From IMG/VR virus record IMGVR_UViG_3300014204_000170, positions 9,717-73,716 of that record: DNA of 64,000 bases. One strand, given 5' to 3'. Below the pieces are notes generated by a model. That model was not told the DNA's origin. It searched no databases and was given only the letters and a program-made list of their open reading frames with translations. The translations under genes and the position numbers were made by a program. Positions 20,137-34,192 of this stretch are shown piece by piece; position 1 is the first letter of the stretch; each line of letters starts with the position of its first letter. Source of the stretch: a virus.

Positions 20137-20215
20137 GCGCTGAATACTCAATGGGTGAGTAGCGGTCTGTAAAATCGTGCCTTCGGGAAAGTTAGTTCGA
20201 TTCTAACTCAGCGCA
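20137..20215 (+). tRNA. tRNA-Tyr (anticodon GTA), long variable arm
   Basis: Acceptor GCGCTGA/TCAGCGC, D-stem ACTC/GAGT, anticodon loop CTGTAAA, variable hairpin, T-arm GTTAG-TTCGATT-CTAAC. Confidence 0.65.
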
Positions 20216-20402
20216 CAATGGCGGTTGAATGAAAATAATAGCCCTCGGCTCACTACCGACTAGGCAGCCAACGAGATTCAACCATAGTGTAATGAACTAT
20301 AAAAAAAGATTTCCCAAAAAAAGAAAAGTAAATAGAAAATTATTATTAGGTAGGTGGGGATGTAAGAAGTCGATGAAGATATATTTTAGTTATAAAAAAC
20401 AC

Positions 20403-20431
20403 TTGACAAGAGTTTATGATTAGTATAAGAT
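20403..20431 (+). promoter_or_regulatory. sigma70-like promoter (TTGACA-17-TAAGAT)
   Basis: ACTTGACAAG motif at 20401-20410, about 100 nt upstream of the HAD hydrolase gene. Confidence 0.45.
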
Positions 20432-20535
20432 GTATGTAGGGATTAGCCCAATTATTAATTAACAATAAATTTTATGAGAAAAAATGTAGTAACATCGTCT
20501 ACTGTTTAATAATATTATTAGAATTAAACGAAAAA

Positions 20536-21216
20536 ATGAAACACTTTATATTCGATATGGACAATACAATAACCGACTCGAGACAAGAAATGAAGCCAGA
20601 AATGTTTAAAGCTTTGTGTTCTTTAGAGTGCGAAGATGTTTCTGTAATAAGTGGTGCAAAAAAAGAACAAATTGAAAAACAGCTTGGTAAATTTCAAACT
20701 GATTTTCTTCTAGCCCAGTCAGGGAACCATACAAAGTTTTGGAAGAACGAACTCACCAAAGAAGATAAGGAAGAAGTCTTAAATCATATATCCATATTAA
20801 GGACATCATATCCAGAATACTTCTTAGATGAAACAGATTTACTCCAAGACCGCGGCTCACAAATGGCGTTTAGTTTTCTTGGGCATAATGCTAATGTTGA
20901 TGATAAGAAAGCTTTTGATATACAAGGAGATTTTAGAAAAGAAGTTTTAAATACAGTGCCGTTCAATAGCAATAATGTAGAAGTCACAGTAGCAGGAACC
21001 ACATGTCTGGATTACACGAGAAAGGATGGAACAAAAGGGAGGAACATTGAAAAATTAATAAAAGAATTAAATTGGAACAAAGAAGATTGTATATACTTCG
21101 GGGATAGGTTTAAACCAGGACAAAATGACGAGTCTGTAATAGGAGTCATTGAAACTGTAGAAGTAAAAAACCCTGAGGATCTAATTGAGAAACTAAAACC
21201 GTATCAGGTAAAATAA
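20536..21216 (+). CDS. HAD-superfamily hydrolase
   Basis: N-terminal FIFDMDNTITD (DxDxT motif I), 226 aa. Confidence 0.55.
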   Translation: MKHFIFDMDNTITDSRQEMKPEMFKALCSLECEDVSVISGAKKEQIEKQLGKFQTDFLLAQSGNHTKFWKNELTKEDKEEVLNHISILRTSYPEYFLDETDLLQDRGSQMAFSFLGHNANVDDKKAFDIQGDFRKEVLNTVPFNSNNVEVTVAGTTCLDYTRKDGTKGRNIEKLIKELNWNKEDCIYFGDRFKPGQNDESVIGVIETVEVKNPEDLIEKLKPYQVK

Positions 21217-21273
21217 AAAATAAATAGTTTTCACTTAGAGCATATACGTCAAGTATATGTTTTCTTTTTATAT

Positions 21274-21344
21274 CAGGGAATAATGAAATGGTATCATGCA
21301 CGGTTTGGAACTGTGTATCGAAGGTTCGAATCCTTCTTCCCTGA
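21274..21344 (+). tRNA. tRNA-Pro (TGG)
   Basis: Acceptor CAGGGAA/TTCCCTG, anticodon loop TTTGGAA, T-arm GAAGG-TTCGAAT-CCTTC. Confidence 0.65.
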
Positions 21345-21366
21345 CTATGTTCGCAAGAACATTTAT

Positions 21367-31783: not shown

Positions 31784-31785
31784 AA

Positions 31786-32130
31786 ATGAAAATTGCATTT
31801 GACATAGACGATACACTAATTATTCCTAGTGTAATTACAGAAGATAGAGATGTACCAAACTATGATACAATCACTATTTATAATTGGTTTCAAGCTCAAG
31901 GAAATCAAATGATACTCTGGTCAGGAAGTGGAATAGATTGGGCACAAACATGGGGAGAAAAATTAGGTCTTCAACCATTCACTGTTCAAAAAAAAGAAAA
32001 AGATTTATCAATAGATCTAGCTTTCGATGATTGTAATGTAGATCTAGCAAAAATTAACATTAAAGTAAAAAGAATTAATAACTCAATTAGTCGTAAAGAA
32101 TGGAATAACACTAAAAAAATCAATGAATAA
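31786..32130 (+). CDS. HAD-like hydrolase
   Basis: The true start is probably MKIAFDIDDTLIIP (DxDxT motif) at 31786, not the upstream in-frame ATG at 31699 reported in the ORF track. Confidence 0.5.
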   Translation: MKIAFDIDDTLIIPSVITEDRDVPNYDTITIYNWFQAQGNQMILWSGSGIDWAQTWGEKLGLQPFTVQKKEKDLSIDLAFDDCNVDLAKINIKVKRINNSISRKEWNNTKKINE

Positions 32131-32611
32131 TATAAAACCTCTATCACCAAAACAACAAATTCAAGAAGACAAAAGACTCGCAAAAGCAAAAATCAAACAA
32201 CAAAAAGAAGATGCAGATGAAAGAATAAAGAAACAAGAAGCAGTTAGAACAATCAAAAAAGTTCTTAATATATACAAAACAAATTTCAAAGATTTATTAA
32301 AATTAGCAAAAAAAGAAATACCAGCTAAAGGTATTTCAACAAAAGCATTACACACAATATTAGGAACAAAAATAAAACAAAAACCAAAAGAATGTAATCA
32401 TTGCCACATAAAAACAGAAAACAACACATCACTATGTAATGAATGTAAAAAAATACCAAAATGCGATAGTTGTGAAATTATAATGGGATACTGGGAAATT
32501 AACAATGACACCAAAGAAAAAGAATTACGATTTACTGCATTCGATAAACCGAGCCACTTAAAACCAACAATTTGTGAAGGATGTTACGAGATAGAACAAG
32601 AAGAAAAATAA
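32123..32611 (+). CDS. zinc-finger protein
   Basis: CNHCH...CNEC...CDSC...CEGC. Confidence 0.4.
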   Translation: MNNIKPLSPKQQIQEDKRLAKAKIKQQKEDADERIKKQEAVRTIKKVLNIYKTNFKDLLKLAKKEIPAKGISTKALHTILGTKIKQKPKECNHCHIKTENNTSLCNECKKIPKCDSCEIIMGYWEINNDTKEKELRFTAFDKPSHLKPTICEGCYEIEQEEK

Positions 32612-32742
32612 TATGAAAGAAATATATTATCTATTCGCAGTAATCTATACATTCATAATCTGGGGAATTGGATGGGGAATAGTGTCAATATTCCTCCCAA
32701 TCTTCCCATTAATAGACTTAGTTAAATACTTATTCAAATAAT

Positions 32743-32994
32743 ATGGAAATCAAATATTTAGAAGTATTATTAATGCCAAACGGAGAAATACTAAATAAAG
32801 GTAAAACAATAGGATATATAAATAACCTAGAAAAATATATCAAAAAAGAAAAAGATATATTAAAAGATTCATTTGTTAAATATCTCGTCGATAATGATAT
32901 TAGAAATGACAATGGATTAAAATCATTATTTGATCTTTTTACAGAATACCCACAAGAATGGGATAATTTTATAGAAGATTTAATAGCCTCATAA
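32743..32994 (+). CDS. hypothetical protein
   Basis: 83-aa ORF. Confidence 0.35.
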   Translation: MEIKYLEVLLMPNGEILNKGKTIGYINNLEKYIKKEKDILKDSFVKYLVDNDIRNDNGLKSLFDLFTEYPQEWDNFIEDLIAS

Positions 32995-32995
32995 T

Positions 32996-34192
32996 ATGAA
33001 AGAAATTACAACAGAAAAACTACCAATAAAAATGTGGTTAGAAGAAATTGAAGAAGGAGCAATGGAACAAATAAAACATTTAGCCAATCTTCCTTTTGCA
33101 TTTAAACATATAGCTATTATGCCTGATTCACACCAAGGATTCGGAATGGTAATCGGAGGAGTATGCGCAACTAAAGATGTAATATGTCCCAATATGGTTG
33201 GTGTGGATATTGGATGTGGAATGTGTGCAGTTAAAACAAATCTTACAGAAATAAATACAGAAACTCTTAAAATAATTATGGGAGAAATAAGAAAATATAT
33301 TCCAATAGGATTTAATAAACATAACACAACTCAAAACTCATCACTAATGCCATATATATTAAATCCAGAATATCATCCATCAGGAACATTATCAAAAACA
33401 TGTCCAATTGTAGCAAGAGAATTTGGAAATGCCTTATTATCTATAGGAACATTAGGAGGAGGAAATCACTTCATTGAAATTCAAAAAGGTTCAGATGGAC
33501 ACATATGGATAATGATTCACTCAGGAAGCAGAAATCTAGGAAAACAAGTAGCTGATCATTATAACAAATTAGCTATTAAATTAAATGAAAAATGGCATTC
33601 AAGTATCCCAAAAGAATGGGAACTAGCTTTCTTACCAATTAATAGCGAAGAAGGACAAGCATATCTAAAAGAAATGCAATATTGTGTAGACTTCGCTTTT
33701 GCTAATAGAAAATTAATGATGTCTCGCGTCATAAATTGCTTTAAAGAAATACTTAAAAGCGAAAACTTCAAAGAGCTAGAATTCATTAATATCGCTCATA
33801 ATTATGCATCACTCGAACACCATTTCGGTAAAGAGGTCTGGATACACCGTAAAGGGGCTACACTTGCTACACAAGACACTATCGGTATTATTCCAGGGTC
33901 GCAAGGTACAAAAAGTTATATCGTTAGAGGTAAAGGAAACATATTCTCCTTTAATTCCTGCTCACATGGAGCTGGTCGTAAAATGGGAAGAAAGGAAGCT
34001 GAAAGGACCCTTAATCTCGAAGAAGAAGTTAAAAAACTAAATGATCAAGGTATCCTGCACTCAATAAGAGGAACGAAAGAATTAGATGAAGCACCTGGAG
34101 CTTATAAAAACATAAATACAGTAATGAAAAATCAAGAAGATTTAGTCGATATTCTTGTAGAACTAACACCATTAGGAGTTATTAAAGGTTAA
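32996..34192 (+). CDS. rtcB: RtcB-family RNA ligase
   Basis: 398 aa with conserved RtcB blocks: MPDSHQGFG, HSGSRNLG, HNYASLEHHFG, GSQGT, and SCSHGAGR near the C-terminus. Confidence 0.8.
   Translation: MKEITTEKLPIKMWLEEIEEGAMEQIKHLANLPFAFKHIAIMPDSHQGFGMVIGGVCATKDVICPNMVGVDIGCGMCAVKTNLTEINTETLKIIMGEIRKYIPIGFNKHNTTQNSSLMPYILNPEYHPSGTLSKTCPIVAREFGNALLSIGTLGGGNHFIEIQKGSDGHIWIMIHSGSRNLGKQVADHYNKLAIKLNEKWHSSIPKEWELAFLPINSEEGQAYLKEMQYCVDFAFANRKLMMSRVINCFKEILKSENFKELEFINIAHNYASLEHHFGKEVWIHRKGATLATQDTIGIIPGSQGTKSYIVRGKGNIFSFNSCSHGAGRKMGRKEAERTLNLEEEVKKLNDQGILHSIRGTKELDEAPGAYKNINTVMKNQEDLVDILVELTPLGVIKG

What the first reader, a model, noticed from the sequence alone, without database searches (positions are those of the whole stretch)
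20137..34192. tRNA array of about 25 genes plus RtcB ligase and phosphoesterases: likely tRNA supply and repair module
25 tRNA-like genes cover most amino acids, and an RtcB 3'-phosphate/2',3'-cyclic-phosphate RNA ligase (32996-34192) lies in the same strand block. Metallophosphoesterase and HAD phosphatases are also encoded (31786-32130, 51436-52592). RtcB plus end-healing enzymes is the classic route to reseal tRNAs cut by host anticodon nucleases (PrrC, RloC, colicin-like). This suggests the phage anticipates a tRNA-cleaving host defence.
Basis: partly seen in the sequence, partly recalled or inferred. Interest (0 to 1): 0.6.

Follow-up and report, generated by a model that had tools for sequence, protein, structure and literature searches.

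The report
Phage tRNA array plus RtcB ligase
A phage genome carries a real block of about 26 tRNA genes and, 9 kb away, an intact RtcB RNA ligase; this is a known phage toolkit for keeping translation going, and the two parts are not inherited together in the phage's closest relatives.

Summary
The + strand at 20137-23968 carries 24 firm and 2 probable tRNA genes, covering 17-18 amino acids. Thr is absent, and the Trp call elsewhere is doubtful. ORF 32996-34192 is a full-length RtcB with every catalytic residue conserved. Three phosphoesterases are real: a small Pnkp-like HAD (31786-32130), a calcineurin-like metallophosphoesterase (51436-52164, - strand) and an RNA-repair-type "SAK" HAD (52170-52592, - strand).

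RtcB joins 3'-phosphate/5'-OH ends directly, so it needs no end healing, and a 3'-phosphatase would work against it. No ATP-dependent RNA ligase or clear polynucleotide kinase was recognised in the window. Seven related contigs keep rtcB in the same conserved gene block but have no tRNA gene in the DNA held around it. Array and ligase are therefore separate acquisitions, not one module. Across about 128 more distant RtcB phage loci, tRNA genes are about 7-fold enriched within 300 nt of rtcB, which fits a tRNA-related role.

The idea itself is already published for other phages. Two side observations are newer: a conserved, covarying structured RNA of about 250 nt directly 3' of rtcB with no Rfam match, and eight tRNAs with a covarying A18/G55 elbow.

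The parts
20090..20121 (+). Promoter-like site: CACTTGACAAG, a 17-nt spacer, then TATACT. It lies directly upstream of tRNA-Tyr.
   Evidence: It matches the sigma-70 consensus at 11 of 12 positions. It belongs to a repeated promoter-like family with 8 matches in the window against 1.15 expected by chance.
20137..20216 (+). tRNA-Tyr(GTA), with a long variable arm.
   Evidence: ARAGORN call and a cloverleaf fold. Its best Rfam match is a sub-threshold hit in the tRNA clan.
20400..20431 (+). Second promoter-like site of the same family, upstream of the HAD gene and the rest of the array.
20536..21216 (+). HAD hydrolase of the Cof/phosphomutase type, sitting inside the array. It is probably a sugar-phosphate enzyme, not an RNA end-healing enzyme.
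   Evidence: Pfam Hydrolase_3 at 3.5e-10. The best PDB match is alpha-phosphoglucomutase 4bnd at 1.2e-16, followed by phosphomannomutases.
21274..21931 (+). Eight tRNAs: Pro-tgg, Gln-ttg, Gln-ctg, Arg-tcg, Asn-gtt, Asp-gtc, His-gtg, Lys-ttt.
   Evidence: ARAGORN. All eight score 49-68 bits on Rfam RF00005.
21960..22028 (+). Probable tRNA with anticodon CAT (Met or Ile2), non-canonical T-loop.
   Evidence: Called only by relaxed ARAGORN. The MFE fold is not a cloverleaf but has a 9-bp terminal stem; I read the anticodon arm and its CUCAUAA loop by hand from the sequence. No Rfam hit.
22173..22247 (+). tRNA-Cys(GCA).
22248..22273 (+). Partial copy (85% identical) of the 5' part of tRNA-Phe. Together with the real tRNA-Phe it flanks the HNH gene.
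   Evidence: Direct repeat D19, 22248-22273 against 22780-22805.
22310..22792 (+). HNH homing-type endonuclease inserted in the array.
   Evidence: phrog_4234 at 8e-31. It is flanked by the repeat above.
22783..23968 (+). Fifteen tRNAs: Phe-gaa, Leu-taa, Leu-caa, Ile-tat, Ile-gat, Ala-tgc, Glu-ttc (probable), Arg-tct, Val-tac, Lys-ctt, Gly-tcc, Glu-ctc, Ser-gct, Ser-tga, Leu-tag.
30590..31783 (+). phiEco32-type COOH-NH2 ligase. It is the first gene of the conserved block that contains rtcB.
   Evidence: PF14395 at 2e-10 and phrog_3815 at 1e-40. It is 75-78% identical in L055, L056 and L142.
31786..32130 (+). Small (114 aa) HAD-fold protein resembling the T4 Pnkp 3'-phosphatase domain.
   Evidence: HAD motifs are invariant in 25 homologues. 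The AF2 model has pLDDT 88.6. The Foldseek top hits are 5uj0 and 2ia5 (T4 Pnkp phosphatase, E 4e-3, TM 0.5) and 4xru Pnkp1.
32996..34192 (+). RtcB 3'-phosphate/5'-OH RNA ligase with a complete active site.
34199..34452 (+). Conserved structured RNA candidate directly 3' of rtcB. It has a 20-bp closing helix, a GNRA-capped hairpin and a multi-helix core.
   Evidence: Folding z-score of -6.2. It is conserved at the same place in 5 relatives. 96.8% of cells are paired, and 13 pairs have double changes against 0-2 in slid controls. No Rfam match at E<=10.
35089..35958 (+). Peptidase C26 / class I glutamine amidotransferase, part of the conserved amidoligase block.
   Evidence: PF07722 at 9e-23. 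76-84% identical in relatives.
38476..40143 (+). Second phiEco32-type COOH-NH2 ligase of the block.
   Evidence: PF14395 at 6.5e-13. 72-86% identical in relatives.
45999..46069 (-). Doubtful tRNA-Trp(CCA) call.
   Evidence: ARAGORN only. No Rfam tRNA hit at E<=1 and a folding z-score of -0.5.
51436..52164 (-). Calcineurin-like metallophosphoesterase.
   Evidence: PF00149 at 1.5e-10. It matches the phosphoesterase region of an 'RNA ligase' PHROG (phrog_8238, 4.5e-7). The catalytic motifs are present.
52170..52592 (-). Stand-alone 'Swiss-army-knife' type HAD phosphatase.
   Evidence: PF18143 HAD_SAK_2 at 6.5e-22. It has the DIDGV motif.
52612..52656 (-). Promoter-like site of the same family as the one before the tRNA array, directly upstream of the SAK-HAD and metallophosphoesterase pair.

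Best explanation
The window comes from a phage. It carries major head, portal, terminase and GroEL genes, and the contig holding the identical RtcB protein is about 110 kb long.

At the head of its rightward gene block the phage carries a near-complete set of its own tRNAs: 24-26 genes for 17-18 amino acids, with U34 species matching its A-ending codons. Consensus sigma-70-like promoters sit just upstream, which suggests (inference) transcription as one or two polycistronic precursors.

Nine kilobases downstream, inside a different and evolutionarily stable gene block, it carries a catalytically competent RtcB. That block also holds COOH-NH2 ligases, glutamine amidotransferases and a small Pnkp-like HAD.

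The most likely reading is two independent devices that both protect translation during infection:
- The tRNAs replace or supplement a host pool that is ill-matched, degraded or cleaved.
- RtcB directly reseals RNAs, most plausibly tRNA anticodon loops, that metal-independent RNases cut to 2',3'-cyclic-phosphate/5'-OH ends. It does this in a GTP-dependent reaction that needs no end healing.

The phosphoesterases are not RtcB helpers. They belong to a separate 3'-end-clearing route, whose ligase and kinase are not in this window, or to nucleotide metabolism.

Shown here: gene identities, the intact active site, synteny and the non-linkage in relatives. Inferred: the substrates, the timing of expression and the anti-defence role.
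For: - tRNA calls and anticodons.
- Codon usage is strongly A/U-ending (ATA 47% of Ile, AGA 65% of Arg, TTA 53% of Leu) and is matched by Ile-UAU, Arg-UCU and Leu-UAA. Isoacceptors for rare codons are present too, so this is a full decoding set rather than a patch.
- RtcB identity and active site.
- Synteny: the block COOH-NH2 ligase, small HAD, rtcB, RNA element, GATase, COOH-NH2 ligase is 50-87% identical in L055, L056, L142, L143 and L141.
- No tRNA in those loci.
- L001 and L066 hold both the left junction gene (the g18976 methyltransferase) and rtcB, 5-6 kb apart, with no array between them.
- tRNA density is 0.59 per kb within 300 nt of rtcB, against 0.05-0.09 per kb at 1-10 kb, across about 128 loci. 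In L004 a 25-tRNA array abuts rtcB, and in L140 rtcB is embedded in a 17-tRNA array.
- Promoter family: sites lie before the array and before the SAK-HAD/metallophosphoesterase pair, with none between 20400 and 62660 on the + strand.
- Published precedent for the concept: PMC7824862 section 3.4.9, PMC13313380, PMC10264068, PMC11555353.
Against: - No host is known, so neither codon compensation nor the presence of a cyclic-phosphate-generating tRNase in the host can be tested.
- Thr, and probably Trp, tRNAs are missing, so the phage still depends on host tRNAs.
- RtcB substrates in bacteria also include rRNA (PrfH/RtcB, PMC9304027), so tRNA is not the only candidate.
- Several recently described tRNA-cleaving defence nucleases (Toprim-type AriB and OLD, per PMC12409363 and PMC12445682) are, to my knowledge, metal-dependent and leave 3'-OH/5'-phosphate ends. 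RtcB cannot join such ends.
- The rtcB-tRNA adjacency statistic counts related contigs, so it is partly inflated by shared ancestry. Six of the adjacent 'tRNA-Pro' calls lie inside the rtcB ORF and are probably false.
- A Pnkp-like 3'-phosphatase two genes upstream of rtcB is conserved with it in the close relatives. This is odd if RtcB needs 3'-phosphate ends.
Confidence: 0.6

Rival explanations
1. One coordinated tRNA supply-and-repair module. The array, RtcB and the phosphoesterases would have been co-selected to defeat an anticodon nuclease, with the phosphatases healing ends for ligation.
For: - All components exist.
- The tRNA array and the SAK-HAD/metallophosphoesterase pair share one promoter family.
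- rtcB abuts or sits inside tRNA arrays in other phages, L004 and L140.
- The small HAD resembles the T4 Pnkp phosphatase.
Against: - RtcB needs the 3'-phosphate that these enzymes would remove.
- No kinase or ATP-dependent ligase was recognised in the window.
- Relatives keep rtcB without any tRNA in the DNA held.
- The SAK-HAD and metallophosphoesterase never accompany rtcB in about 130 loci.
- In other phages the small HAD sits away from any RtcB.
- The parts lie 9 kb and 17 kb apart, partly on opposite strands.
Confidence: 0.15
2. RtcB works with the conserved structured RNA immediately downstream. In relatives a Ro-like DUF2828/vWA protein may take part as well. Together they would form an RNA quality-control ribonucleoprotein comparable to the bacterial Rsr-Y RNA-RtcB operon, or the RNA would be an RtcB substrate or regulator. 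In this reading the tRNA array is unrelated.
For: - The RNA element is conserved at the same position in all close relatives and covaries.
- Relatives L055, L056 and L142 encode DUF2828/DUF7788 proteins 3.6-4.5 kb upstream of rtcB, and L060 encodes a TROVE protein 0.5 kb downstream.
- DUF2828 shares a vWA/MIDAS region with that TROVE protein (E 7e-5).
- TROVE proteins in phage RNA-repair contexts are noted in PMC7824862.
- In other phages the slot right next to rtcB often holds a tRNA.
Against: - The window has no DUF2828/TROVE homologue.
- The RNA has no Rfam match at all, Y RNA families included, even at E<=10.
- The element is confined to one narrow clade: the covariance model finds none in about 130 other RtcB loci.
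- A perfect 20-bp helix could simply be an RNase III processing or stability element for the rtcB mRNA.
Confidence: 0.15
3. The array serves only codon-usage or host-shutoff compensation, and rtcB is a passenger gene with no role in tRNA repair during infection. It might, for example, act on rRNA or mRNA, or have no selected function here.
For: - The tRNA set mirrors the phage's AT-rich codon usage.
- RtcB occurs in many phages with no tRNA nearby: about 70% of loci, and the Rhodococcus Cluster CR phages in PMC13313380.
Against: - tRNAs for rare codons are present too (Gln-CUG, Lys-CUU, Glu-CUC, Leu-CAA, Arg-UCG).
- The RtcB active site and the whole protein are strongly conserved across hundreds of phage contigs.
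- tRNA genes are enriched next to rtcB.
Confidence: 0.1

Closest known systems
T4 Pnkp + Rnl1 repair of PrrC-cleaved tRNA-Lys
   Same: A phage-encoded answer to anticodon-loop cleavage. A Pnkp-phosphatase-like HAD fold is present at 31786-32130.
   Different: The sealing enzyme here is RtcB, which is GTP-dependent and joins 3'-P/5'-OH ends with no healing step. It is not an ATP-dependent Rnl. No kinase domain or Rnl was recognised in the window.
tRNA sets plus RtcB/Rnl ligases in jumbo phages (Iyer et al. 2021, PMC7824862) and Rhodococcus Cluster CB phages (PMC13313380)
   Same: The same inventory: many tRNAs, RtcB, stand-alone SAK-type HAD and calcineurin-like phosphatases. The proposed anti-tRNase logic is the same as well.
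   Different: This phage is smaller (the matching contig is about 110 kb) and comes from an uncultured lineage with no near-DNA match in INPHARED. Its rtcB sits inside an amidoligase block and is followed by a structured RNA.
Bacterial rsr-Y RNA-rtcB(A) operons (Salmonella; RtcR-regulated operon, PMC7790460)
   Same: RtcB lies next to a structured non-coding RNA whose ends pair in a long helix. Relatives carry Ro/TROVE-like or vWA proteins.
   Different: The RNA has no similarity to any Rfam family, Y RNA families included. There is no Ro-like gene, RtcA or RtcR in the window.
Phage tRNA regions invaded by homing endonucleases (T4 SegB and the T5 tRNA-region HNH enzymes; from my own knowledge, not checked here)
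   Same: An HNH endonuclease gene lies inside the array, flanked by a partial duplicate of a tRNA 5' half.
   Different: Homing activity and the target site have not been tested.
phiEco32-type amidoligase gene cluster (Pfam PF14395 family)
   Same: Two COOH-NH2 ligases and two glutamine amidotransferase-like proteins flank rtcB and are conserved with it.
   Different: I know of no functional link between this cluster and RNA ligation. The co-location may be plain colinearity.

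Membership tests
RtcB RNA ligase (PF01139) | Full-length match to the family profile. | tested here: met
   PF01139 at 5e-113 covers model positions 1-426 of 426. phrog_1075 at 4e-123.
RtcB RNA ligase (PF01139) | Metal ligands and the guanylylated histidine (Pho D65, D95, C98, N202, H203, H234, H329, H404). | tested here: met
   All are conserved as D44, D71, C74, N157, H158, H175, H268 and H324 in the alignment to 1uc2.
RtcB RNA ligase (PF01139) | GTP/Mn-dependent joining of 3'-P or 2',3'>P to 5'-OH RNA ends. | not testable with these tools
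   This needs an enzyme assay.
tRNA (RF00005) | Covariance-model score above the gathering threshold, and a cloverleaf fold. | tested here: met
   22 genes score 36.7-68 bits against a gathering score of 29. Tyr and Ser-gct are called by ARAGORN at default settings and fold as cloverleaves. Met-cat and Glu-ttc are called only by relaxed ARAGORN. Trp is not supported.
tRNA (RF00005) | Canonical tertiary elbow (G18, G19, T54, Psi55, C56) and U33. | tested here: not met
   Only 12 of 26 have a TTC T-loop. Eight have G55 together with A18. Phe and Val have C33. These tRNAs may still be functional, because the 18/55 changes covary.
HAD superfamily phosphatase (small protein at 31786-32130) | The four HAD motifs and a Rossmann-like fold. 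| tested here: met
   DxDxT, S/T, K and DD motifs are invariant in 25 homologues. The AF2 model has pLDDT 88.6, and its top Foldseek hits are HAD phosphatases led by T4 Pnkp. There is no Pfam hit.
Polynucleotide 3'-phosphatase (T4 Pnkp type) | Specific relationship to the Pnkp phosphatase domain, and activity on RNA/DNA 3'-phosphate. | tested here: inconclusive
   The top 12 Foldseek hits are T4 Pnkp or Pnkp1, but the E-value is only 4e-3, the TM-score 0.5 and identity about 20%. Activity was not tested.
Calcineurin-like metallophosphoesterase (PF00149) | Profile match plus the DxH, GDxxD, GNHD/E and GH motifs. | tested here: met
   PF00149 at 1.5e-10. Motifs GDVHG, GDYFD, GNHD and GHTH are present.
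SAK-type HAD of RNA repair proteins (PF18143) | Profile match above the gathering score. | tested here: met
   78.8 bits against a cut-off of 27.5. The RNA-repair role comes from the family's annotation and was not tested.
T4-type heal-and-seal pathway (kinase + 3'-phosphatase + ATP-dependent RNA ligase) | An ATP-dependent RNA ligase (Rnl) and a polynucleotide 5'-kinase are present. | tested here: not met
   No Rnl or PNK family was recognised among the window ORFs of 289 aa or more, each scanned in at least one of Pfam and PHROGs. The only candidate P-loop protein (54308-54820, AAA_28) looks like a nucleotide kinase. The rest of the genome, about 46 kb, was not seen.
Rsr/Ro-Y RNA-RtcB system | A Ro/TROVE protein and a Y RNA family member next to rtcB. 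| tested here: not met
   There is no TROVE/DUF2828 homologue in the window. The RNA has no Rfam hit, Y RNA families included. Relatives do carry DUF2828 or TROVE proteins.
Conserved tRNA-array/rtcB module | Co-inheritance of the array and rtcB in related phages. | tested here: not met
   Seven related contigs have rtcB but no tRNA in the DNA held. No relative sharing the array was found.

The most novel reading that the evidence does not exclude
The conserved element of about 250-310 nt directly 3' of rtcB (34199-34452) is a new class of phage non-coding RNA that works with RtcB. It could act as a scaffold, a substrate or a regulator, possibly with the Ro-like DUF2828 proteins of related phages. 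It occupies the slot where other phages place a tRNA.

Separately, the array's eight A18/G55 'elbow-swapped' tRNAs form a deliberate structural class. Such a class would let phage tRNAs be told apart from host tRNAs, or escape elbow-recognising enzymes.
Probability: 0.25. Interest if true: 0.65.

Novelty: new member of a known kind. Interest (0 to 1): 0.3.

Why it matters
The main finding adds one more uncultured phage lineage to the known pattern of large tRNA sets plus an RtcB ligase. It also shows, by comparison with relatives, that the two parts are acquired and kept independently. That argues against reading every co-occurrence of them as a single module. It also corrects a common biochemical conflation: RtcB does not need end healing.

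The side observations could matter more. An unclassified, covarying structured RNA tied to rtcB gives a concrete handle on what phage RtcB acts on. A strictly covarying 18/55 tertiary-pair swap was seen in 8 window tRNAs and in 34 of 760 tRNAs from loci that were selected for carrying that T-arm sequence. It would be a natural experiment on the tRNA elbow.

Tried and rejected
- A megablast of 20000-34300 against INPHARED phages gave no match.
- An exact-protein look-up of the window RtcB and of its identical database entry P0001 found nothing on record.
- I searched for relatives sharing the array region:
  - The HAD gene (20536-21216) and ORF 28728-29411 found nothing in IMG/VR or in the metagenomes.
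  - The g18976 search found L054, which is 91% identical, but that contig ends at the junction and shows nothing of the array side.
  - A tRNA T-arm 17-mer found 52 viral contigs, none related to the window.
- The RNA-element pattern had 0 hits in IMG/VR. An 18-mer had 18 hits in GTDB genomes, which is the number expected by chance, and none was confirmed by the covariance model.
- I considered that the RNA element might be a group I intron, because of a resemblance to the R/S core that I recalled from memory. I rejected this. There is no Rfam hit of any kind at E<=10, the RtcB ORF is complete to its C-terminus, and no split gene flanks the element.
- tRNA-Pro calls inside rtcB ORFs (L034, L106, L117, L120, L135, L137) lie in a continuous tblastn alignment, so I treated them as likely false positives.
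- DUF2828 against PDB sequences gave no hit.
- The HAD gene inside the array, considered as an RNA end-healing enzyme, was rejected because it is phosphoglucomutase/phosphomannomutase-like.
- ORF 37347-38501 (384 aa, no family hit) was checked for the ligase KxDG motif and has none.

Full report
**What the window is**

The window has 31.5% G+C and is phage DNA.
- The - strand block 443-19665 encodes a major head protein, portal, large terminase and an endolysin-like protein.
- The window also encodes GroEL, an SNF2 helicase, SAM synthetase, SAH hydrolase, a DnaB-like helicase and a LAGLIDADG endonuclease.
- The RtcB protein is identical to a database entry seen on a 109,737-bp contig.
- No near-DNA relative exists in the INPHARED phage collection.

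**The tRNA array**

- ARAGORN at default settings tRNAs on the + strand between 20137 and 23968.
- Rfam's tRNA model at gathering score adds three more: 22783-22853, 23114-23184 and 23563-23633. Relaxed ARAGORN reads them as Phe-GAA, Ile-GAU and Gly-UCC.
- Two further candidates appear only with relaxed ARAGORN. Glu-UUC (23263-23334) folds as a cloverleaf. Met/Ile2-CAU (21960-22028) does not in the MFE fold; I read its cloverleaf by hand from the sequence.
- The total is 24 firm plus 2 probable genes, covering 17 amino acids firmly and 18 with Met. Thr is absent.
- The isolated Trp(CCA) call at 45999-46069 on the - strand is weak: there is no Rfam tRNA hit at E<=1 and no folding signal.

Spacers between tRNAs are 0-30 nt, and none of the genes encodes CCA.

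The set contains the U34 species that read the phage's dominant A-ending codons: ATA is 47% of Ile, AGA 65% of Arg and TTA 53% of Leu. It also contains isoacceptors for rare codons (Gln-CUG, Lys-CUU, Glu-CUC, Leu-CAA, Arg-UCG). It is a nearly complete decoding set rather than a patch for a few codons.

Two genes interrupt the array:
- ORF 20536-21216 is a Cof-type HAD. Its nearest solved relatives are alpha-phosphoglucomutase and phosphomannomutases. It is a sugar-phosphate enzyme, not an RNA end-healing one.
- ORF 22310-22792 is an HNH endonuclease. It is flanked by an 85% copy of the first 23-26 nt of tRNA-Phe, which looks like the footprint of a mobile insertion.

**Promoters**

A promoter-like family with the form (C/T)ACTTGACAAGT, a 17-nt spacer, then TATACT occurs 8 times in the window against 1.15 expected by chance.
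- One copy ends 16 nt before tRNA-Tyr.
- One precedes the HAD gene and the rest of the array.
- One lies directly upstream of the SAK-HAD/metallophosphoesterase pair.
- None lies on the + strand between 20400 and 62660, so rtcB has no promoter of this class of its own.

**RtcB**

ORF 32996-34192 matches PF01139 end to end at 5e-113. It aligns to P. horikoshii RtcB with every metal ligand and the guanylylated histidine conserved: D44, H46, D71, C74, N157, H158, H175, H268 and H324.

The protein belongs to a very large, tightly conserved clade. There are 8000 scored hits, the top 120 of them at least 68% identical (one of them without a stated identity), mostly on phage-like metagenomic contigs.

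**Phosphoesterases**

- ORF 51436-52164 is a calcineurin-like metallophosphoesterase with all catalytic motifs. It matches the phosphoesterase part of a PHROG annotated as RNA ligase.
- ORF 52170-52592 is a stand-alone SAK-type HAD (PF18143).
- Both lie on the - strand, 17 kb from rtcB. Their neighbours are a dATP/dGTP diphosphohydrolase-like gene, SAM-cycle enzymes and a P-loop nucleotide-kinase-like gene.
- ORF 31786-32130 has no Pfam hit. It is nonetheless a HAD by motif and by fold (pLDDT 88.6). Its best structural matches are the T4 Pnkp 3'-phosphatase domain and Pnkp1 of the Pnkp1/Rnl/Hen1 complex, at a modest E of 4e-3 and TM-score of 0.5-0.6.
- This small HAD family is widespread, with more than 500 homologues at 65-80% identity. 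In the other phages I looked at it is not near an RtcB.

**Is it one module?**

RtcB ligates 3'-P or 2',3'>P to 5'-OH directly. The phosphatase/kinase healing steps belong to the ATP-dependent Rnl pathway (PMC7824862 section 3.4.9). No Rnl, polynucleotide kinase, archease, RlaP or CCA-adding enzyme family was recognised among the ORFs I scanned. That set includes all ORFs of 289 aa or more, each in at least one of Pfam and PHROGs. About 46 kb of the genome lies outside the window.

Comparison with relatives argues against co-inheritance:
- Loci L055, L056 (identical to L057-59 and L61), L142, L143 and L141 share a colinear block at 50-87% protein identity. The block runs COOH-NH2 ligase, small ORFs, small HAD, rtcB, non-coding element, GATase, second COOH-NH2 ligase, GATase-like gene.
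- None of these loci has a tRNA in the DNA held around rtcB, by ARAGORN for all of them and by Rfam for L001, L055 and L056.
- The upstream reach differs a lot between loci. It is 10 kb for L056, 5-7 kb for L001, L055, L066 and L142, and under 2 kb for L141 and L143. The window's array starts 9 kb upstream of rtcB, so only L056 covers the equivalent distance.
- L001 and L066 also contain the homologue of the gene that borders the array on the left (the methyltransferase at 18976-19665). It lies only 5-6 kb from rtcB with no tRNA in between.
- The array and about 6 kb of small ORFs (20137 to about 30000) are therefore specific to the window's lineage, while rtcB is stably embedded in the amidoligase block.
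- I could not find any relative that shares the array.
- The SAK-HAD and the metallophosphoesterase have no homologue in any of about 130 RtcB loci.

**Is there still a link between RtcB and tRNAs?**

Yes, at the level of the wider clade. In 128 non-redundant RtcB loci from IMG/VR and the metagenomes:
- tRNA density is 0.59 per kb within 300 nt of rtcB, against 0.05-0.09 per kb at 1-10 kb.
- The adjacent tRNAs are always on the same strand as rtcB, and most are a single tRNA-Pro(UGG).
- In L004 a 25-tRNA array abuts rtcB, and in L140 rtcB is embedded in a 17-tRNA array.

Two caveats apply. Many loci are related, so the events are not independent. Six of the adjacent calls lie inside the ORF and are probably false. 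About 70% of loci show no tRNA in the DNA held.

**What is already known**

The same inventory and the same interpretation have been published:
- Jumbo phages: tRNAs supplemented by RtcB and ATP-grasp ligases, SAK-type HAD and calcineurin-like phosphatases (PMC7824862).
- Rhodococcus Cluster CB phages. The same paper notes Cluster CR phages that have RtcB but no tRNAs (PMC13313380).
- Phage tRNAs as counters to tRNA-targeting defence are argued or shown in PMC10264068 and PMC11555353.

I found no experimental test of a phage RtcB in the library I searched. The finding is a new member of a known kind.

**Side finding 1: a structured RNA next to rtcB**

- Seven nucleotides after the rtcB stop codon begins a 254-nt element (34199-34452). 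Its MFE is -72 kcal/mol and its z-score -6.2.
- The ORF-free gap after rtcB is kept in all close relatives, and its sequence is highly conserved.
- With five distinct sequences, 96.8% of cells pair. Thirteen of 70 pairs show compensatory double changes, against 0-2 in slid controls.
- The changes occur in a 20-bp closing helix, a GNRA-capped hairpin (CAGC-GUAA-GCUG, CAGA-GCAA-UCUG, CGUA-GUAA-UACG) and two other helices.
- The two A-to-G changes in the 3' arm of the window's closing helix give G·U pairs on the + strand but would be A·C mismatches on the - strand. This points to an RNA read from the + strand, co-oriented with rtcB.
- No Rfam family matches even at E<=10.
- A covariance model built from the element finds it in none of about 130 other RtcB loci.
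- Relatives carry DUF2828/DUF7788 proteins upstream, or in L060 a TROVE protein next to rtcB. The two protein types share a vWA region. This recalls the Ro-Y RNA-RtcB operons, but the window has no such protein.
- The function is open.

**Side finding 2: elbow-variant tRNAs**

- Only 12 of the 26 array tRNAs have the canonical TTC T-loop.
- Four have C55.
- Eight have G55, and all eight lack G18: the D-loop reads AGUAGUA in place of AGUGGUA.
- In 116 tRNAs from other RtcB phage loci none has G55.
- In 760 tRNAs from loci retrieved with one G55 T-arm 17-mer, 34 have G55 and all 34 lack the D-loop GG. By contrast 708 of 709 TTC tRNAs have the GG.
- This looks like covariation of the 18:55 tertiary pair, and the window's array is unusually rich in it.
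- tRNA-Phe and tRNA-Val also have C33.

**Verdict**

The best reading is two independently acquired devices that maintain translation: a tRNA supply, and direct resealing of cyclic-phosphate RNA breaks by RtcB. The phosphoesterases belong to another route.

The concept is known, so interest in the main finding is modest. The rtcB-linked RNA and the elbow-variant tRNAs are the parts worth following up.

Noticed in passing
window 34199-34452 (+); L055:6590-6880, L056:11192-11503, L142:6319-6617, L143:1917-2228: A conserved, covarying structured RNA candidate lies directly 3' of rtcB. It has a 20-bp closing helix and a GNRA hairpin, and 13 of 70 pairs show compensatory changes. It has no Rfam match and is confined to the close relatives.
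   Followed up: partly
window 21518, 21713, 21786, 22173, 22783, 22858, 23114, 23263 (start positions of the tRNAs): Eight tRNAs have G at T-loop position 55, and all eight lack G18 in the D-loop. Four others have C55. In other phage arrays G55 also always goes with loss of the D-loop GG (34 of 34), so this looks like covariation of the 18:55 elbow pair.
   Followed up: partly
window 22783-22854 and 23411-23483: tRNA-Phe(GAA) and tRNA-Val(TAC) have C instead of the near-universal U at position 33 of the anticodon loop.
   Followed up: no
window 20090, 20400, 47491(-), 50866(-), 52656(-), 57714(-), 62660: A repeated promoter-like family, (C/T)ACTTGACAAGT then a 17-nt spacer then TATACT, has 8 matches against 1.15 expected. 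Four copies are nearly identical over about 45 nt. It marks the tRNA array, the SAK-HAD/metallophosphoesterase pair, and the SNF2 and Band-7 genes among others.
   Followed up: partly
window 26184-27322: A 1.1-kb AT-rich stretch has no ORF longer than 47 aa. It holds three consecutive long inverted repeats (26472-26578, 26581-26715, 26729-26911). A 57-nt repeat is shared with 25662-25719. A perfect 17-bp hairpin follows further on at 27566-27604. It could be an origin, a regulatory region or further RNAs.
   Followed up: no
window 22248-22273 vs 22780-22805, around the HNH gene 22310-22792: The HNH endonuclease gene in the array is flanked by an 85% duplicate of the 5' part of tRNA-Phe, which suggests a mobile insertion.
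   Followed up: partly
window 30590-31783, 35089-35958, 38476-40143, 40164-41570: A phiEco32-type amidoligase cluster (two COOH-NH2 ligases and two glutamine-amidotransferase-like proteins) surrounds rtcB and is conserved with it in relatives. Its product is unknown.
   Followed up: partly
L055:3-1454, L056:4049-5506, L142:83-1561; L060:11693-13177; L056:11707-12850: Relatives carry a DUF2828/DUF7788 (Ro-like vWA) protein upstream of rtcB. L060 carries a TROVE protein just after rtcB. L055, L056, L142 and L143 carry a LemA plus TPM-phosphatase pair shortly downstream of rtcB. The window lacks all of these.
   Followed up: partly
window 52662-53018(-), 53123-54136(-), 54308-54820(-), 54820-56028(-): A dATP/dGTP diphosphohydrolase N-domain protein, SAM synthetase, an AAA_28 P-loop kinase-like protein and SAH hydrolase sit together. 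This may be a nucleotide or DNA-modification pathway.
   Followed up: no
L034:534-608, L106:1092-1166, L117:872-947, L120:757-831, L135:729-805: ARAGORN calls a tRNA-Pro(UGG) inside the rtcB coding sequence of several phages, at a site where those proteins have a short insertion. It is probably a false positive, but it recurs at the same position.
   Followed up: no
L004:10001-11772: In this phage rtcB is followed by about 500 nt, then a duplicate of its last 28 codons, then a 25-tRNA array. This suggests an insertion near the 3' end of rtcB.
   Followed up: no
window 57701-58366(-), 56366-56725(-), 56727-57596(-): A LAGLIDADG homing endonuclease, a protein with a prepilin-type N-terminal methylation motif and an SPFH/Band-7 protein lie next to each other.
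   Followed up: no
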